The translations under genes were made by a program, and so were the position numbers. The notes under the pieces were generated by a model. The model worked only from the letters and a program-made list of their open reading frames with translations, searched no databases and had not been told where the DNA came from. Positions 35,069 through 42,340 of a stretch of 50,636 nt of DNA are shown here, one piece after another. The DNA comes from Escherichia phage vB_EcoM_50EP: sequence record OR472545.1. One strand, given 5' to 3'. How positions within the stretch are numbered: position 1 is the first letter of the stretch; every line of letters starts with the position of its first letter.

Positions 35069-35070
35069 TT

Positions 35071-35262
35071 TCAGAATTTAACTTTCTCGACTACCTGGAC
35101 CATCTCGTATCCAAGGCGGTAACTGTCACCAAGGATTAATCGGCCCATGAACTGATCTTGCGTGAAGCTCTCCTTGCCCATGGTCCGAAGCGCTCCGTGA
35201 TGGATGATGGTGTCGCCTACCTTCACGTCGTTCTTGTGCGTCAAAACAATTTCGTTAGCCAT
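35071..35262 (-). CDS. hypothetical protein
   Basis: 63-aa ORF. Confidence 0.35.
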   Translation of the reverse strand: MANEIVLTHKNDVKVGDTIIHHGALRTMGKESFTQDQFMGRLILGDSYRLGYEMVQVVEKVKF

Positions 35263-35275
35263 TATGCTGATCCCC

Positions 35276-35458
35276 TTACATGTGTTTCATGTAGAAAGCG
35301 ATTTCACGGATGTTGTCCTCTGGATGAGCCTTCACGACTACCGCGAACATCTTCTCAACCAGCGACTTGGTGCTCTCAGGGTTGTAACCTTCCTGGACCA
35401 GCATGGCGATAGTGTTTTCGATGGTAACTGGTGAGTTCTTGTTGATGCGCTTAGCCAT
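35276..35458 (-). CDS. hypothetical protein
   Basis: 60-aa ORF after cassette. Confidence 0.35.
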   Translation of the reverse strand: MAKRINKNSPVTIENTIAMLVQEGYNPESTKSLVEKMFAVVVKAHPEDNIREIAFYMKHM

Positions 35459-35494
35459 GATGATTTCCTTTAGTGCGTGCCGTTTCGATGAGGT

Positions 35495-35538
35495 AATAAT
35501 AGCTAATCACTCCTGATCGGTCATTAGCAAAAAGTGCT
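35495..35538 (-). promoter_or_regulatory. TAGCAC-box promoter cassette (minus)
   Basis: rc: TAGCACTTTTTGCTAATG ... TATTAT ... CATCGAAACGGCAC. Confidence 0.45.
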
Positions 35539-35552
35539 ATTCGTTCGATTTA

Positions 35553-35665
35553 TGGATTGTTGCAGCTATTGCAATGATTAACTTCACTATTGCACATATA
35601 GCAATATTGCATCCTTTGCAATGACGTTTTCGATTGTTGCGAATTGAGCAATGATTCATTGATGG
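35553..35665. repeat. cluster of at least 7 TTGCA(A/T) / GCAATGATT direct and inverted repeats
   Basis: ATTGTTGCAGCTATTGCAATGATTAACTTCACTATTGCACATATAGCAATATTGCATCCTTTGCAATGACG...TTGCGAATTGAGCAATGATTC. Confidence 0.5.
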
Positions 35666-35788
35666 GGGGAATGATGGGGTGAGATCTGATCCCCTGATCG
35701 CCTGGTAGGATTTTCCCGCCACACGTTTCTAGCGCATACGCGTTATGCATGTTATGCTCTGTAGACAAATCCATCCGGCGTGGAATCA

Positions 35789-35905
35789 GGTACGCATATA
35801 ACGCCTATTTACGCTATGGTTACAATAAAATATCCTTATATAACAACCCTTTATCTATATTATTATTATTATTATATATATATGTAGATAATGTAGATAA
35901 GGGAT
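35789..35905. repeat. AT-rich control-region core with GGTTACA motifs and (ATT)n tract; homologous to 16226..16340
   Basis: TTTACGCTATGGTTACAATAAAATATCC...ATTATTATTATTATTATATATATAT alignable with first locus. Confidence 0.5.
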
Positions 35906-36174
35906 ACGAGATATTGCGATAGTTTTCTATGATACATTCTGACACTTGTAAGAATGGGATGACATTGTAGGAATAAAAAGGCATATATGGGGCAATCCTC
36001 CGCGAAATTTGATGTACAAGCTGTACACAGTGGTTACATTGAGCTATATCTGGCCCGAGAGGTCGCAAAACGTAACTAAGTCGAACATTTGCATCAATAA
36101 CACTTGATAACATGTAACCACGCTGGTAATATTGCACCCATCTTAACGAAGACCACCAATCAGGAGTAACATCT

Positions 36175-36696
36175 ATGTCAAATCATAATCAACCCGTAAG
36201 CCTGGGCGATGTCGTCCGCTACATGGCGGAGCAGGCGCTCAAGTCCGAGAACCGCAGCTACCACGTTCCAATCCACCTGATAGCTCGCCAGATGTACGGC
36301 CTCACGGCTGATGATATGGGCAGAATCAATGCCGACGACCTTGAGGCTGGCGGTAAGTACAGCGTTGCAAAGCTGAAAGCCTCGTACGTCTCTAACACGG
36401 TTGCCAGGATGCCAGAGATTCAGGCGGCGAACGTTCGGGCCAAGCTGTCAATCAAGGATGGCGACTTCGGGGATGATGTAGATGTTCGATGTGCTTACAT
36501 CACCCTGGTTGATGGTGCGATCCAGACCGGAACACGACACAAGGGTGACGCGGAAAAGGAGGCGGTCATCGTTGAAAGGTTCAAGTCTCGGTTGCTCAAG
36601 ATCACACCGAACGTCATCGACCTGCAAGGTGAGCAGAAAGAAGGTGCGCTCATTGCCCTGGCTCGCTACCATGAAATGATCAAGGATACTAAATGA
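36175..36696 (+). CDS. hypothetical early protein
   Basis: 173-aa ORF, first gene after AT-rich region, RBS AGGAG. Confidence 0.45.
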   Translation: MSNHNQPVSLGDVVRYMAEQALKSENRSYHVPIHLIARQMYGLTADDMGRINADDLEAGGKYSVAKLKASYVSNTVARMPEIQAANVRAKLSIKDGDFGDDVDVRCAYITLVDGAIQTGTRHKGDAEKEAVIVERFKSRLLKITPNVIDLQGEQKEGALIALARYHEMIKDTK

Positions 36697-37262
36697 TGAG
36701 CATGTTTGATTTCAGTGAAGATAAACTAACAGATGAGCAGGTGATTGAAGTTGCCATGATTGATGGTCTACTTCCGCTGCGAGTTGCGATCAGTCATAAC
36801 GGATACCGACAGTCGTTCAAATACTGGTGCAGCGCGGAAGAGATGCTTCGTGTCAAGCTCGACAGAAAGCTCGCCGTCGTCACCCATAAGATACACGACC
36901 AGGCGAAAAGAGGTAAGGGAGTTGTAGGCATTCGATCAACATACGAGGCGATCAGGAAGTTGCATCCTTTCGTCGGGCGCAATGGTGTCATGAATGACCT
37001 GAATGATAACATTCTGCCAGCGCTCCAGGGCGCCGGAATAATTTGCGTTATTGGTGACAAGATATATGCTCACCCTGCATTGGTTGGTATGGATGGTCGC
37101 GACGTCTATAAGTGGTGCAACGCCTGGCGCGCTGTGGAGCGCCGCAAATCTCAGAGCAAATTGCAGTCCAGCTCAGATCTGATTCATGGCTATGATGCAG
37201 ATGAGGTCAGAAAGGCCATCCAGTTCTACCGGAAAGCGAAATCTCTCCTGAACGGTGAATAG
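36693..37262 (+). CDS. mini-paralog of the P-loop ATPase (N- and C-terminal segments only, ATPase core absent)
   Basis: MFDFSEDKLTDEQV...LPLRVAI..NGYRQS and KRGKGVVGIRSTYEA...GDKIYAHPALVG align to the ends of the 30682..32265 product. Confidence 0.45.
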   Translation: MMSMFDFSEDKLTDEQVIEVAMIDGLLPLRVAISHNGYRQSFKYWCSAEEMLRVKLDRKLAVVTHKIHDQAKRGKGVVGIRSTYEAIRKLHPFVGRNGVMNDLNDNILPALQGAGIICVIGDKIYAHPALVGMDGRDVYKWCNAWRAVERRKSQSKLQSSSDLIHGYDADEVRKAIQFYRKAKSLLNGE

Positions 37263-37302
37263 CACGAATTGCTAAACCAGTTCCGCAAGGACGCGGTATA
37301 TT
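37260..37302 (+). promoter_or_regulatory. TAGCAC-box promoter cassette
   Basis: TAGCACGAATTGCTAAAC ... CCGCAAGGACGCGG ... TATATT ... CATTGAAACGAAAT. Confidence 0.45.
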
Positions 37303-37333
37303 GAACTCATTGAAACGAAATAGGAACATCACC

Positions 37334-37564
37334 ATGAGCTACACGATCGCCACAATGCGCACATCCACCAGGGAGCAGCGAAAGAGCCGTAAGCAGGTTA
37401 TCACCAAGCGAATCGAACGTAATGCCATGAGATACATGACGGCTGAGCAGGCCGAGAGATTCATGCGCGCCATCAAGTCCGACCTTGTGGAATTGATGGA
37501 TATTGGAAGCGCCGCCGGATACCAGTCAGGCCGTAACGATGAGCGCAATAGCACGAATTGCTAA
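37334..37564 (+). CDS. hypothetical basic protein
   Basis: ATG 37334 with RBS AGGAAC; track N-terminal extension rejected. Confidence 0.35.
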   Translation: MSYTIATMRTSTREQRKSRKQVITKRIERNAMRYMTAEQAERFMRAIKSDLVELMDIGSAAGYQSGRNDERNSTNC

Positions 37565-37591
37565 ACAATAAATCGGGTAGTCAGCTATGAT
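37549..37591 (+). promoter_or_regulatory. TAGCAC-box promoter cassette
   Basis: TAGCACGAATTGCTAAAC ... TATGAT; box overlaps upstream stop. Confidence 0.4.
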
Positions 37592-37621
37592 TGCCCTATC
37601 AACAACGAAGAGGAAATGATT

Positions 37622-37828
37622 ATGGAAACTGTACGTATTGACGACGTTCACTTTGACCAAGCAGAGGTCAGCGTCACGATGGGAACCGCTCGTGGGCATG
37701 TTGTTAGCCTAGACTTTAATCCTGACGGCTACGCAGACTGTCAAACACTGATGCAATACTCACCTGATGCGGCCCGCAAATTAGCGGCGGCACTAATCCT
37801 GGCAGCAGAAGAGGCAGAAAATCAATGA
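37622..37828 (+). CDS. small protein, paralog family member A
   Basis: shares DFNPD...Y.P..AR.LAAAL..AAEE pattern with 37825 and 38603 ORFs. Confidence 0.4.
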   Translation: METVRIDDVHFDQAEVSVTMGTARGHVVSLDFNPDGYADCQTLMQYSPDAARKLAAALILAAEEAENQ

Positions 37829-38043
37829 GAGACATTCGAGTTAACTCATCATGGAATCAGGAAACGGAAATCTCAGTAATCAAGGTTCCGTTCGGAAAGA
37901 TGCGTAAGCGCGTGCACCTGGACCTTTCGCCGGATTCGCAAGTGGATGGCGCTGGCATGACATACACCGCAGAGCAGGCGCGCGAACTTGCTGCGGCACT
38001 CATCAAAGCGGCTGAGGAAGTGGAGGCGGAAGTCGATGAGTAA
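37825..38043 (+). CDS. small protein, paralog family member B
   Basis: LDLSPD...YTAEQARELAAALIKAAEE; ATGA-coupled to A. Confidence 0.4.
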   Translation: MRDIRVNSSWNQETEISVIKVPFGKMRKRVHLDLSPDSQVDGAGMTYTAEQARELAAALIKAAEEVEAEVDE

Positions 38044-38236
38044 ATTCAGGATCGCATTGATTGACACAACAACCGCCTTCGGTCATCCGGTCAAGTGGTA
38101 TGCCGTCCAAAAACGGGTGGCTTTGTTCTGGTGGGTTACGGTTGGGCACACCAGCCAGTTATCCCAGGCTCGCTACTGGCTGCATAAGTCCGGCGCACCG
38201 CATCGCAAAGAGAAAGTAGTGAGGATTATCGAATGA
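38036..38236 (+). CDS. hypothetical protein
   Basis: ATG 38036 overlapping upstream stop. Confidence 0.3.
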   Translation: MSKFRIALIDTTTAFGHPVKWYAVQKRVALFWWVTVGHTSQLSQARYWLHKSGAPHRKEKVVRIIE

Positions 38237-38523
38237 AGAAACTAATTTTATTAGCAGCACTGGCTCTGGCTGGATGTGATTTCGGAAGCACCCGCGTAGA
38301 TTCAGAGGCTCGGCAGAAGATGCCAGTGAATGTCAACGATCGCGTCCAGGTTGTGAAGATTCAGGAGTTCAGGGATGAACTGGCATATGAGAACGTCAGA
38401 GCGATATACGTCATCACCGATAAGGACACTGGTCAGGAATACATCGGCTTAAGCGGTGTCGGGATCGTGGAAGTTGGTCGCCATGGTTGCGGCAAGGGAT
38501 GCTCCAGAGAAGATGAGCGATAG
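38233..38523 (+). CDS. lipoprotein
   Basis: signal peptide with lipobox LAGC. Confidence 0.5.
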   Translation: MKKLILLAALALAGCDFGSTRVDSEARQKMPVNVNDRVQVVKIQEFRDELAYENVRAIYVITDKDTGQEYIGLSGVGIVEVGRHGCGKGCSREDER

Positions 38524-38563
38524 CACTTTTTGTTAAAAATGCCGTGAGTGCATTTGCTATAGT
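38521..38563 (+). promoter_or_regulatory. TAGCAC-box promoter cassette
   Basis: TAGCACTTTTTGTTAAAA, 8-bp stem TGAGTGCA/TGCACTCA with TTTGCTATAG loop, CATTGAAGTGAAAC. Confidence 0.5.
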
Positions 38564-38602
38564 GCACTCATTGAAGTGAAACAATCAACTAAGGGGTAAT
38601 TT

Positions 38603-38833
38603 ATGAGCACGACCGCCGTACGCATCGCTGACGACTCAGGCGAACAGGCCGAGGTAATGGTAAAGAAACTGCATAGCAGCGCCCATGGCTTCGCATTCAA
38701 GGTGTGCGTTGACTTCAATCCTGAAGAGTATGTTGACGCATCAAGTTACATGGCGTACACGCCAGACCAGGCGCGCCAGTTAGCGGCGTATCTGATGGAA
38801 GCTGCCAACCGCGCTGATAAGGGGGTTTTATGA
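38603..38833 (+). CDS. small protein, paralog family member C
   Basis: VDFNPEEY...YTPDQARQLAAYLMEAA. Confidence 0.4.
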   Translation: MSTTAVRIADDSGEQAEVMVKKLHSSAHGFAFKVCVDFNPEEYVDASSYMAYTPDQARQLAAYLMEAANRADKGVL

Positions 38834-39054
38834 TTAACGATTATGAAATTAAGAAAGAAAGCAAGATATTTAACGATTCAGATGGTGATTCTTGCTGCAT
38901 TTACACGAGAACTACGCTGGGAGTTGTAACCGTCGAGATGGTGATTGAACACGAATCAGGAGCGTTCCCCATGAGGGAGTCGACAACAGTCCGAGCAATG
39001 GGCGAGCACCTTATCAAAATGGCTGACTACATGGAGCGCCACAATGAACAATGA
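38830..39054 (+). CDS. hypothetical acidic protein
   Basis: 74-aa ORF, ATGA-coupled. Confidence 0.35.
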   Translation: MINDYEIKKESKIFNDSDGDSCCIYTRTTLGVVTVEMVIEHESGAFPMRESTTVRAMGEHLIKMADYMERHNEQ

Positions 39055-39360: not shown

Positions 39361-39609
39361 ATGAAAATGGTTTTCAATAAACAGACAATCTTTGATTTTA
39401 TGGACGACGTGAACAAGGCTATTCAGGAGTTTGCTGTTGCAATGGAAGCGGTAATCATTAGCTACTCAGTCGAATACGGAAGGATTGAGGTCCGGTACTA
39501 CCCTGCTAACGCCATAGCAGATGTGCATCCAGTGATGAGCATCTTGGTCGGTGATGCAAGTGAGCTTCGACGGATTACGTCTGGTGTGAGAAAGAGCACG
39601 AATTGCTAA
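39361..39609 (+). CDS. hypothetical protein
   Basis: 82-aa ORF. Confidence 0.35.
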   Translation: MKMVFNKQTIFDFMDDVNKAIQEFAVAMEAVIISYSVEYGRIEVRYYPANAIADVHPVMSILVGDASELRRITSGVRKSTNC

Positions 39610-41887: not shown

Positions 41888-42340
41888 ATGAAAAGGATTG
41901 ATGAACTTGTAATTATTACATCATTAGAGACTGATGATTGCATAGATTGGACTTACGCAAAAACAAGAGATGGATACGGCCAGGTTAGATATCGTGGGGC
42001 AACCAGAAGGGCGCACAAGGTATCATACTGCATGTCAAATGGAATTGACTATGAGGATGTAAAAGGTGTTGTAATGCACTCATGCGATAATCCTTGTTGT
42101 GTAAACCCAAGACACCTAACAGTTGGCACTCAGCATGAAAATATTATTGATTGCGTCTCAAAGGGTAGATTTAGAAGTGTGGAGGGCATTAAGAATCCAA
42201 GGTCGATAGTGTCAAACTCTGACGCAGAGAAAATGCGCTCAATGAGGGAGATTGGAATGACTTATGGTGATATAGCGAAAAGCATGGGCGTTGGAAAATC
42301 AACGGCGTATAGAGTAATAACAACTGGATACTTATCATGA
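41888..42340 (+). mobile_element. HNH homing endonuclease with C-terminal HTH-like segment
   Basis: DGYGQV...HK..Y......V.HSCDNPCCVNPRHL..GT..EN pattern; markedly AT-rich relative to flanks. Confidence 0.55.

What the first reader, a model, noticed from the sequence alone, without database searches (positions are those of the whole stretch)
37622..39054. Tandem family of 3 (possibly 4) paralogous 70-76-aa early proteins, each behind its own box cassette
ORFs at 37622, 37825 and 38603 share a common architecture: an N-terminal strand-like segment (VRI.D...QAEV.V), D(F/L)(N/S)P(D/E), and a C-terminal helix Y(S/T)(P/A)(D/E)(A/Q)AR(K/E/Q)LAA(A/Y)L..AA(E/N). The ORF at 38830 may be a diverged fourth member. 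Paralog expansion of small early proteins through a cassette mechanism is the kind of diversification seen for anti-defence or host-takeover genes.
Basis: seen in the sequence. Interest (0 to 1): 0.55.

Follow-up and report, generated by a model that had tools for sequence, protein, structure and literature searches.

The report
Tandem small Gp4.5-like phage proteins
Four neighbouring genes of this T1-like coliphage encode diverged copies of one small acidic protein of unknown function that varies from one to four copies among related phages, and it resembles, distantly, the T7 protein Gp4.5 that disarms a bacterial toxin-antitoxin defence.

Summary
The paralogy is real. The ORFs at 37622 (or 37616), 37825 and 38603 match pairwise at BLASTP E 9e-9 to 2e-15, and all three hit phrog_13316. 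[quoted passage not shown]

The window is the complete genome of Escherichia phage vB_EcoM_50EP (Drexlerviridae, Nouzillyvirus-like). No relative was found in bacterial genomes. Members occur in some Drexlerviridae and in Vequintavirinae but not in T1, with 1 to 4 copies per genome. Chimeric genes are common, variation concentrates in two loops, and dN/dS is 0.05-0.42.

"Each behind its own box" is wrong. There are two translationally coupled pairs, each behind one copy of the known T1-like 21-nt repeat.

My best reading is a diversifying set of accessory protein-binding inhibitors (anti-defence or host takeover). That function is inferred, not shown.

The parts
37550..37591 (+). Copy of the T1-like intergenic repeat (AGCACGAATTGCTAAAC, 37550-37566) plus a -10-like TATGAT (37586-37591), upstream of the P1-P2 pair
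   Evidence: Exact match of the box; context alignment of about 25 boxes; promoter scan hit TAAACA-18-TATGAT; the repeat is described for TLS (PMC11447400)
37616..37828 (+). Paralog P1 (70 aa from 37616; probably 68 aa from ATG 37622); net charge -8, pI 4.2; the member found in every related locus examined
   Evidence: (P0003 = 100% identical annotated protein)
37825..38043 (+). Paralog P2 (72 aa); its start overlaps the P1 stop (ATGA); the member closest to T7 Gp4.5
   Evidence: (PF17574 E 0.016)
38036..38236 (+). Unrelated 66-aa gene (phrog_2010) that travels with the lipoprotein gene, directly after P2 where P2 is present; lies between the two pairs
   Evidence: no similarity to the family, hhalign P 0.18
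38233..38523 (+). Unrelated 96-aa predicted lipoprotein (MKKLILLAALALAGC; phrog_16585, weak Cor-like hit) between the two pairs
38522..38563 (+). Second repeat copy (AGCACTTTTTGTTAAAA, 38522-38538) plus an extended -10-like TGcTATAGT (38555-38563), upstream of the P3-ORF38830 pair
38603..38833 (+). Paralog P3 (76 aa); AF2 model: strands 2-9, 15-25, 29-37, 50-52 and helix 54-72
38830..39054 (+). Diverged fourth member (74 aa, phrog_16871); its start overlaps the P3 stop (ATGA); AF2 model: strands 10-15, 21-29, 32-39, 42-48 and helix 51-72

Best explanation
The locus holds four tandem paralogs (three clear, one diverged) of a small family not found outside phage sequences here. The proteins are 68-76 aa, acidic, and fold as four beta-strands followed by one C-terminal helix. 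They are arranged as two translationally coupled pairs, P1-P2 and P3-ORF38830. Each pair follows one copy of the Drexlerviridae intergenic repeat and a -10-like hexamer.

The family is an accessory, fast-turnover gene set. Relatives carry 1 to 4 copies. Copies are gained, lost and recombined within the gene, while two loops at one edge of the sheet and the C-terminal tail vary on a conserved scaffold.

The family is a probable remote relative of T7 Gp4.5, which inhibits Lon protease and thereby blocks the sanaTA toxin-antitoxin defence. Most likely these proteins act stoichiometrically, probably as dimers, by binding a host protein (a protease, an ATPase or a defence component) rather than nucleic acid, with different paralogs covering different targets or target variants.

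Shown: the paralogy, the family's distribution, purifying selection, the predicted fold, the acidity and the statistical similarity to Gp4.5.

Inferred: homology with Gp4.5, dimerisation, early expression, protein-binding inhibitor function and any anti-defence role.
For: - Paralogy.
- Real genes under purifying selection: dN/dS 0.05-0.42 against orthologs.
- Small, phage-restricted family: 260 clusters at 90% identity, in the top 120 mostly on short contigs or contigs of about 45-52 kb. Only 54 clusters at 50% identity among 1.84 billion proteins. No relative in 185,579 species genomes. Absent from T1. Present in Vequintavirinae phage A7_1.
- Copy number of 1-4 and chimeric genes.
- Variability confined to the beta2-beta3 hairpin, the beta3-beta4 loop and the tail.
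- Acidity: mean net charge -6.2 and pI 4.8 over 163 members.
- Gp4.5 link, forward direction: Pfam PF17574 E 0.016 for P2 and 5.6e-4 for the best of 45 members. hhalign of the family against T7 gp4.5 gives P 7.2e-5, probability 63%, 62 colinear columns. Profile-profile comparison gives P 2e-4, probability 46%.
- Gp4.5 link, decoy tests: with a Gp4.5 HMM, 39 of the top 40 among 7,972 targets are family members. Family HMMs score T7 gp4.5 at 15.4-17.9 bits, against a maximum of 11.5-13.8 bits for 4,200 shuffles.
- Gp4.5 function: PMC8230891 and bioRxiv 10.1101/2024.10.10.617714.
Against: - The Gp4.5 similarity is below Pfam's gathering score (15.7 against 27 bits), and hhalign probabilities are only 46-63%.
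- Gp4.5 looks basic by inspection of its sequence and carries an extra C-terminal helix, so its Lon-binding surface need not be conserved here.
- Foldseek against viral models (BFVD) did not place Gp4.5 among the top 50 matches shown.
- No experiment or expression data exist for any member.
- The fold-level matches (PC4/PUR) point to nucleic-acid binders.
- P1 is found at the same position in every related locus examined, so it may serve the phage's own biology rather than counter-defence.
Confidence: 0.45

Rival explanations
1. The proteins are PC4/PUR-like (type II PC4-like fold) dimers that bind single-stranded DNA or RNA and serve phage replication, recombination or transcription, as proposed for the phage T5 PC4 homolog.
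Confidence: 0.15
2. Each paralog is a module-specific partner (chaperone, adaptor or regulator) of the genes that travel with it: P2 with the 66-aa gene and the lipoprotein, and P3 with ORF 38830 and ORF 39044. It would not be a stand-alone effector.
For: Linkage recurs in relatives. P2, where present, is followed by the 38036-type gene, and by the 38233-type gene in most loci. P3 is followed by the 38830- and 39044-type genes in 9 of 10 loci.
Against: P817, TH27 and BUCT-XGG-1 keep the 38036-38233 genes without P2. BUCT-XGG-1 keeps P3 without the 38830 type. P1-type genes occur alone in JulesPiccard, AugustePiccard, XT34, Opt-79 and A7_1. Linkage may reflect shared descent only.
Confidence: 0.1
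3. The resemblance is chance or compositional, coming from an Ala-rich helix, and the ORFs are not a family or not genes.
For: The C-terminal helix is low in complexity and was masked by BLAST's filter in tblastn. Other small families share only this helix (DUF6907, DUF7739, phrog_2060).
Against: Composition-adjusted BLASTP E values are 1e-9 to 1e-15 and cover the N-terminal strands. The HMM matches are full-length. dN/dS is well below 1. Reversed and shuffled decoys do not score.
Confidence: 0.01

Closest known systems
T7 Gp4.5 (Pfam PF17574, TA_inhibitor): a Lon-protease inhibitor that blocks the sanaTA abortive-infection toxin-antitoxin system
   Same: A small, non-essential phage protein. 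The alignment is colinear: IR(L/V)xD strand, W, a second and third strand, a variable loop, then M-T-(L/Y)-T-x-E-Q-A-x-x-L-x-x-A-L-x-K-A-A. Sub-threshold matches are reciprocal and exceed all decoys.
   Different: Below Pfam's cut-off. Gp4.5 is 87-105 aa, looks basic by inspection and has a further C-terminal helix, whereas this family is 67-78 aa and acidic. This family occurs in tandem arrays in siphoviruses and myoviruses, not as a single gene in T7-like podoviruses. Lon binding is untested.
PC4-like fold, type II (PC4, Sub1, YdbC, Borrelia Pur-alpha, PURA repeat III, T5 PC4 homolog)
   Different: No sequence similarity, an acidic rather than basic surface, and no evidence of nucleic-acid binding. 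Unrelated COMM and KhtT domains score equally.
phrog_13316 and phrog_16871 (PHROGs families of unknown function)
   Same: P1, P2 and P3 fall in phrog_13316 and ORF 38830 falls in phrog_16871.
   Different: PHROGs treats them as separate families with no function. Here they are linked by HMM, hhalign and predicted fold.
Phage accessory-region genes (fast-evolving counter-defence or trigger genes; Silas et al., bioRxiv 10.1101/2023.04.06.535777)
   Same: Small genes in a variable region flanked by conserved genes.
   Different: This is an analogy of context only. No member of this family was identified in that study; my term search of it failed and was not repeated.

Membership tests
T7 Gp4.5 / PF17574 TA_inhibitor | Score at or above Pfam's gathering threshold (27 bits) | tested here: not met
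   P2 scores 15.7 bits (E 0.016). P1 and P3 have no hit. Only 2 of 45 members hit, best E 5.6e-4.
T7 Gp4.5 / PF17574 TA_inhibitor | Detectable remote homology by profile methods and against decoys | tested here: inconclusive
   hhalign P 7.2e-5 at 63% probability and P 2e-4 at 46%. Reciprocal HMM scores exceed all shuffled and reversed decoys. Suggestive, but not at conventional certainty.
T7 Gp4.5 / PF17574 TA_inhibitor | Binds and inhibits Lon protease; rescues phage from sanaTA | not testable with these tools
   Needs pull-down or plating assays. The function is taken from the literature.
PC4-like fold, type II | [quoted passage not shown] | tested here: met
PC4-like fold, type II | Intermolecular dimer forming the two-sheet domain | not testable with these tools
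   No multimer prediction was available. The two ATGA-coupled gene pairs are compatible with heterodimers, but that is inference.
PC4-like fold, type II | Sheet surface that contacts the nucleic-acid backbone and stacks bases on aromatic side chains, binding ssDNA or RNA | tested here: not met
   Net charge is -8, -5, -4 and -6 for the four proteins, and the family mean is -6.2. Conserved sheet residues include E17 and D33. Binding itself was not assayed.
phrog_13316 | Significant match to the PHROG profile | tested here: met
   E 1.4e-12, 2e-8 and 3.3e-6 for P1, P2 and P3. ORF 38830 matches phrog_16871 instead.
DUF600 / YezG-like immunity protein (label on the CJ19 ortholog of ORF 38830) | Match to the Pfam model | tested here: not met
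   ORF 38830 has no Pfam hit at E <= 1. The label comes from the CJ19 record only.

The most novel reading that the evidence does not exclude
The family and T7 Gp4.5 together form a previously unrecognised superfamily of phage inhibitors built on the PC4/PUR-like four-strands-plus-helix dimer, repurposed from nucleic-acid binding to protein binding or acidic mimicry. Translationally coupled gene pairs (P1-P2, P3-ORF38830) would make heterodimers, and their hypervariable loops would set which host protease, ATPase or defence sensor is neutralised.
Probability: 0.15. Interest if true: 0.7.

Novelty: new variant of a known kind. Interest (0 to 1): 0.45.

Why it matters
Gp4.5 is one of very few known phage counters to toxin-antitoxin or Lon-dependent defences, and PF17574 matched only T7-like proteins in the search made here. 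If the link holds, a related, diversifying and multi-copy family exists in T1-like and rV5-like coliphages, including BASEL phages Bas01 and Bas03. That would give tractable candidates for new anti-defence activities and a first fold assignment for Gp4.5. If the link fails, this remains an ordinary accessory family of unknown function.

Tried and rejected
- PDB sequence search with the family profile: nothing below E 0.25.
- Foldseek against PDB and BFVD: no hit at E <= 0.001.
- NCBIfam and PADLOC: no hits.
- IMG/VR scan: only 3 loci.
- Scan of 185,579 species genomes: no relative.
- T7 Gp4.5 has no solved structure.
- hhalign of the family against the other neighbouring small ORFs (38036, 38233, 39044, 39367, 39665, 39934): no similarity, P 0.08-0.6. 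I rejected my own suspicion that ORF 38036 ('SQLSQARYWL') is a member.
- ORF 37334 ('MTAEQAERF') was also not picked up by the family HMM.
- The DUF600 label on the CJ19 ortholog is unsupported.
- The PNAS 2026 daunorubicin paper and the BASEL paper gave no information on these genes.
- No paper mentions vB_EcoM_50EP.
- tblastn could not count paralogs per genome because the helix is masked as low complexity. A local HMM scan of the fetched loci replaced it.

Full report
**Source of the window.** The window is the complete 50,636-bp genome of Escherichia phage vB_EcoM_50EP. A 68-aa protein identical to P1 from ATG 37622 is annotated on a 50,636-bp contig of that name. The nearest records are Nouzillyvirus phages of the Drexlerviridae (TH21, CJ19, P817), at about 89% nucleotide identity over the region.

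**The observation.**
- The ORFs lie at 37616/37622-37828 (P1), 37825-38043 (P2) and 38603-38833 (P3).
- BLASTP gives E 9e-9 (P1-P2), 2e-15 (P1-P3) and 3e-9 (P2-P3).
- All three match phrog_13316.
- Against orthologs in related phages, dN/dS is 0.05-0.42, so these are real genes under purifying selection.

**The fourth ORF (38830-39054).**
- It fails BLAST, a narrow HMM, and sits in a different PHROG.
- An HMM from 45 diverse members, run on all 711 six-frame ORFs of the window, returns only P1, P2, P3 (E about 1e-28 to 1e-29) and this ORF (E 1.3e-4, 17.9 bits). The next hit is at E 2.3.
- Its orthologs score 18-23 bits, above every one of about 4,200 shuffled and reversed decoys.
- hhalign aligns it colinearly over 64-69 columns (P 7.5e-4 and 2.2e-3), whereas six other neighbouring ORFs give P 0.08-0.6.
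- Its AF2 model (pLDDT 80.6, pTM 0.67) has strands 10-15, 21-29, 32-39, 42-48 and helix 51-72. This is the same order as the P3 model (pLDDT 79.6; strands 2-9, 15-25, 29-37, 50-52; helix 54-72).
- I therefore count it as a diverged fourth paralog.

**Arrangement of the genes.**
- P2 starts within the P1 stop codon, and ORF 38830 starts within the P3 stop codon. Both are ATGA overlaps.
- Only two boxes are present. AGCACGAATTGCTAAAC lies at 37550-37566, followed by TATGAT at 37586-37591. AGCACTTTTTGTTAAAA lies at 38522-38538, followed by TGcTATAGT at 38555-38563.
- The unit is therefore two translationally coupled pairs, each behind one box, and not one box per gene.
- Two unrelated genes separate the pairs: 38036-38236 (phrog_2010) and a lipoprotein at 38233-38523.
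- The box is a genome-wide element. About 25 copies lie on both strands, each followed after about 19-20 nt (often a GC-rich hairpin) by a TATAnT hexamer and a CATCGAAACGAA-like stretch.
- The repeat has been described in phage TLS as a 21-nt repeat, aaATAGCACnnnTTGnTAAAA, of unknown function that also occurs in T1 and Rtp (PMC11447400).

**Distribution and dynamics.**
- The word-indexed search found 260 clusters at 90% identity; in the listed top 120 they sit mostly on short contigs or on contigs of about 45-52 kb.
- An exhaustive profile search of 1.84 billion representatives found only 54 clusters at E below 1e-3.
- No relative was found in one genome from each of 185,579 bacterial and archaeal species.
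- T1 has none, while the Vequintavirinae phage A7_1 has one.
- A local HMM scan and synteny map of 18 related loci gave these copy numbers:

| Copies | Phages or loci |
|---|---|
| 1 | JulesPiccard, AugustePiccard, XT34, Opt-79, SU57, A7_1 |
| 2 | P817, TH27, ETEP102, BUCT-XGG-1 |
| 3 | this phage, TH21, GaoY1-9D, one IMG/VR contig |
| 4 | TH30; CJ19 (one of its four 5'-truncated); PH1062 has three plus a helix-only relative |

- In the Nouzillyvirus and some other loci a P1-type gene directly follows the conserved pair 36175-36696 and 36693-37262; elsewhere (SU57, Opt-79, PH1062, this phage) extra genes intervene.
- Extra copies abut the preceding copy with no box. This argues against a box-mediated cassette mechanism of duplication.
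- Chimeras are common. Examples are a P2 N-terminus with the P3 tail (P0010, P0018, P0093, P0043), a P1 N-terminus with the P3 tail (P0029, P0048), a P1 N-terminus with the P2 tail (P0004, P0012, P0078), and ETEP102's first copy, which joins a P1 N-terminus to the middle of another subtype.
- Within each orthologous group, variation sits in the beta2-beta3 hairpin, the beta3-beta4 loop and the C-terminal tail. The first strand, QAEV, DFxPD and M-x-Y-T-P-x-Q-A-R-x-L-A-A-x-L are nearly fixed.

**Nature of the proteins.**
- They are acidic: net charge -8, -5, -4 and -6 for the four, with a family mean of -6.2 and pI 4.8 over 163 members.
- There are no significant Pfam, NCBIfam, PADLOC or PDB sequence matches.
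- Foldseek against PDB and BFVD is not significant.
- This is the type II PC4-like topology, whose monomers dimerise (PMC7549692).
- The acidic composition and the lack of conserved basic or aromatic sheet residues argue against the nucleic-acid-binding function of that class.

**Link to T7 Gp4.5.**
- P2 has a sub-threshold Pfam hit to PF17574 (E 0.016, 15.7 bits against a cut-off of 27). Among 45 members the best E is 5.6e-4.
- hhalign of the family against the single T7 gp4.5 sequence gives 62 colinear columns, P 7.2e-5, probability 63%.
- Profile against profile gives 58 columns, 31% consensus identity, P 2e-4, probability 46%.
- A Gp4.5 HMM was searched against 7,972 targets: 163 family members, 30 shuffles of each, the reversed sequences, and all ORFs of the window and loci. 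It puts 39 family sequences and one decoy in its top 40.
- Conversely, three family HMMs score T7 gp4.5 at 15.4-17.9 bits, against decoy maxima of 11.5-13.8 bits.
- Gp4.5 inhibits Lon and so prevents activation of the sanaTA system. It may also counter CcdAB and RADAR (PMC8230891; bioRxiv 10.1101/2024.10.10.617714).
- I rate homology at roughly two in three. The function cannot be transferred directly, because Gp4.5 looks basic by inspection of its sequence and carries a further helix.

**Conclusion.** Its organisation differs from what was claimed: pairs, not one box per gene. The evolutionary pattern (accessory, variable in copy number, mosaic, loop-variable on a fixed scaffold), the acidity, and the only characterised relative all point to protein-binding inhibitors of host or defence factors. 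That function, dimerisation and early timing remain inferences. The main rival is a PC4-like nucleic-acid binder. It is supported by fold only and contradicted by charge.

Noticed in passing
window, about 25 sites on both strands (e.g. 25401, 26703, 28716, 32978(-), 35067(-), 37261, 37550, 39595, 43632): This is a genome-wide repeat, tAGCAC(GAATT/TTTTT)G(C/T)TAAAN. It is followed by about 19-20 nt (often a GC-rich hairpin), a TATAnT hexamer (often TGnTATAAT-like) and CATCGAAACGAA before the ribosome-binding site. It matches the 21-nt repeat reported for phage TLS (PMC11447400), whose function is still unknown. The TTGCTA inside the box lies too far (about 22 nt) from the -10 to be a normal -35.
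   Followed up: partly
window 37263-37549 (ORF 37334-37564): A 76-aa ORF with no PHROG hit and no ortholog in any of the 18 related loci sits between two perfect boxes (37261 and 37550). All megablast alignments to relatives start at about 37545-37547. This looks like a box-flanked insertion unique to this phage. Its reading frame runs through the box, so the protein ends in STNC, as does ORF 39361-39609 and an ORF in T1.
   Followed up: partly
window 38233-38523: This is a 96-aa predicted lipoprotein (lipobox LAGC; phrog_16585; weak hit to Cor superinfection-exclusion protein, E 0.0018). It lies in the accessory region, far from the receptor-binding locus where Cor-like genes of T1-like phages are usually placed.
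   Followed up: no
window 41888-42340: An HNH endonuclease gene (phrog_6254) lies upstream of the polynucleotide kinase gene. It is present in BUCT-XGG-1 but absent at this position from most related loci, so it is probably a mobile homing-type insertion.
   Followed up: no
L005 5322-5507 (JulesPiccard bas03_0067); L011 3608-3814 (PH1062): A further small-protein type shares only the C-terminal strand-plus-helix motif (FMTPEQALELAAALVSAANEA) with the family. Its EQAL..L..AL version is the one closest to T7 Gp4.5's TDEQALRLVNAL. Sixteen of 45 family members also touch Pfam DUF6907 through this helix.
   Followed up: partly
L016 1844-2131 (SU57) and proteins P0079, P0090, P0119: Some gene calls for family members carry an N-terminal extension MDRVV(S/G)YDYPI(D/N)N.EEM. 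This is the in-frame translation of the conserved -10/leader part of the repeat cassette. It is probably an annotation artefact, and it shows that the 38830-type gene of SU57 sits behind the same leader as P1 genes.
   Followed up: no
L006 5007-5216 (Vequintavirinae phage A7_1): A P1-type member (61% identical) occurs in 137-145-kb rV5-like myoviruses (A7_1, W70, A73, UPEC06). This indicates exchange of the gene between unrelated coliphage families.
   Followed up: no
window about 35070-36170: An approximately 1.1-kb divergent region lies between the leftward and rightward gene blocks. It has few convincing ORFs and carries boxes on both strands (35526 +, 35538 -). It may be a control or origin region.
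   Followed up: no
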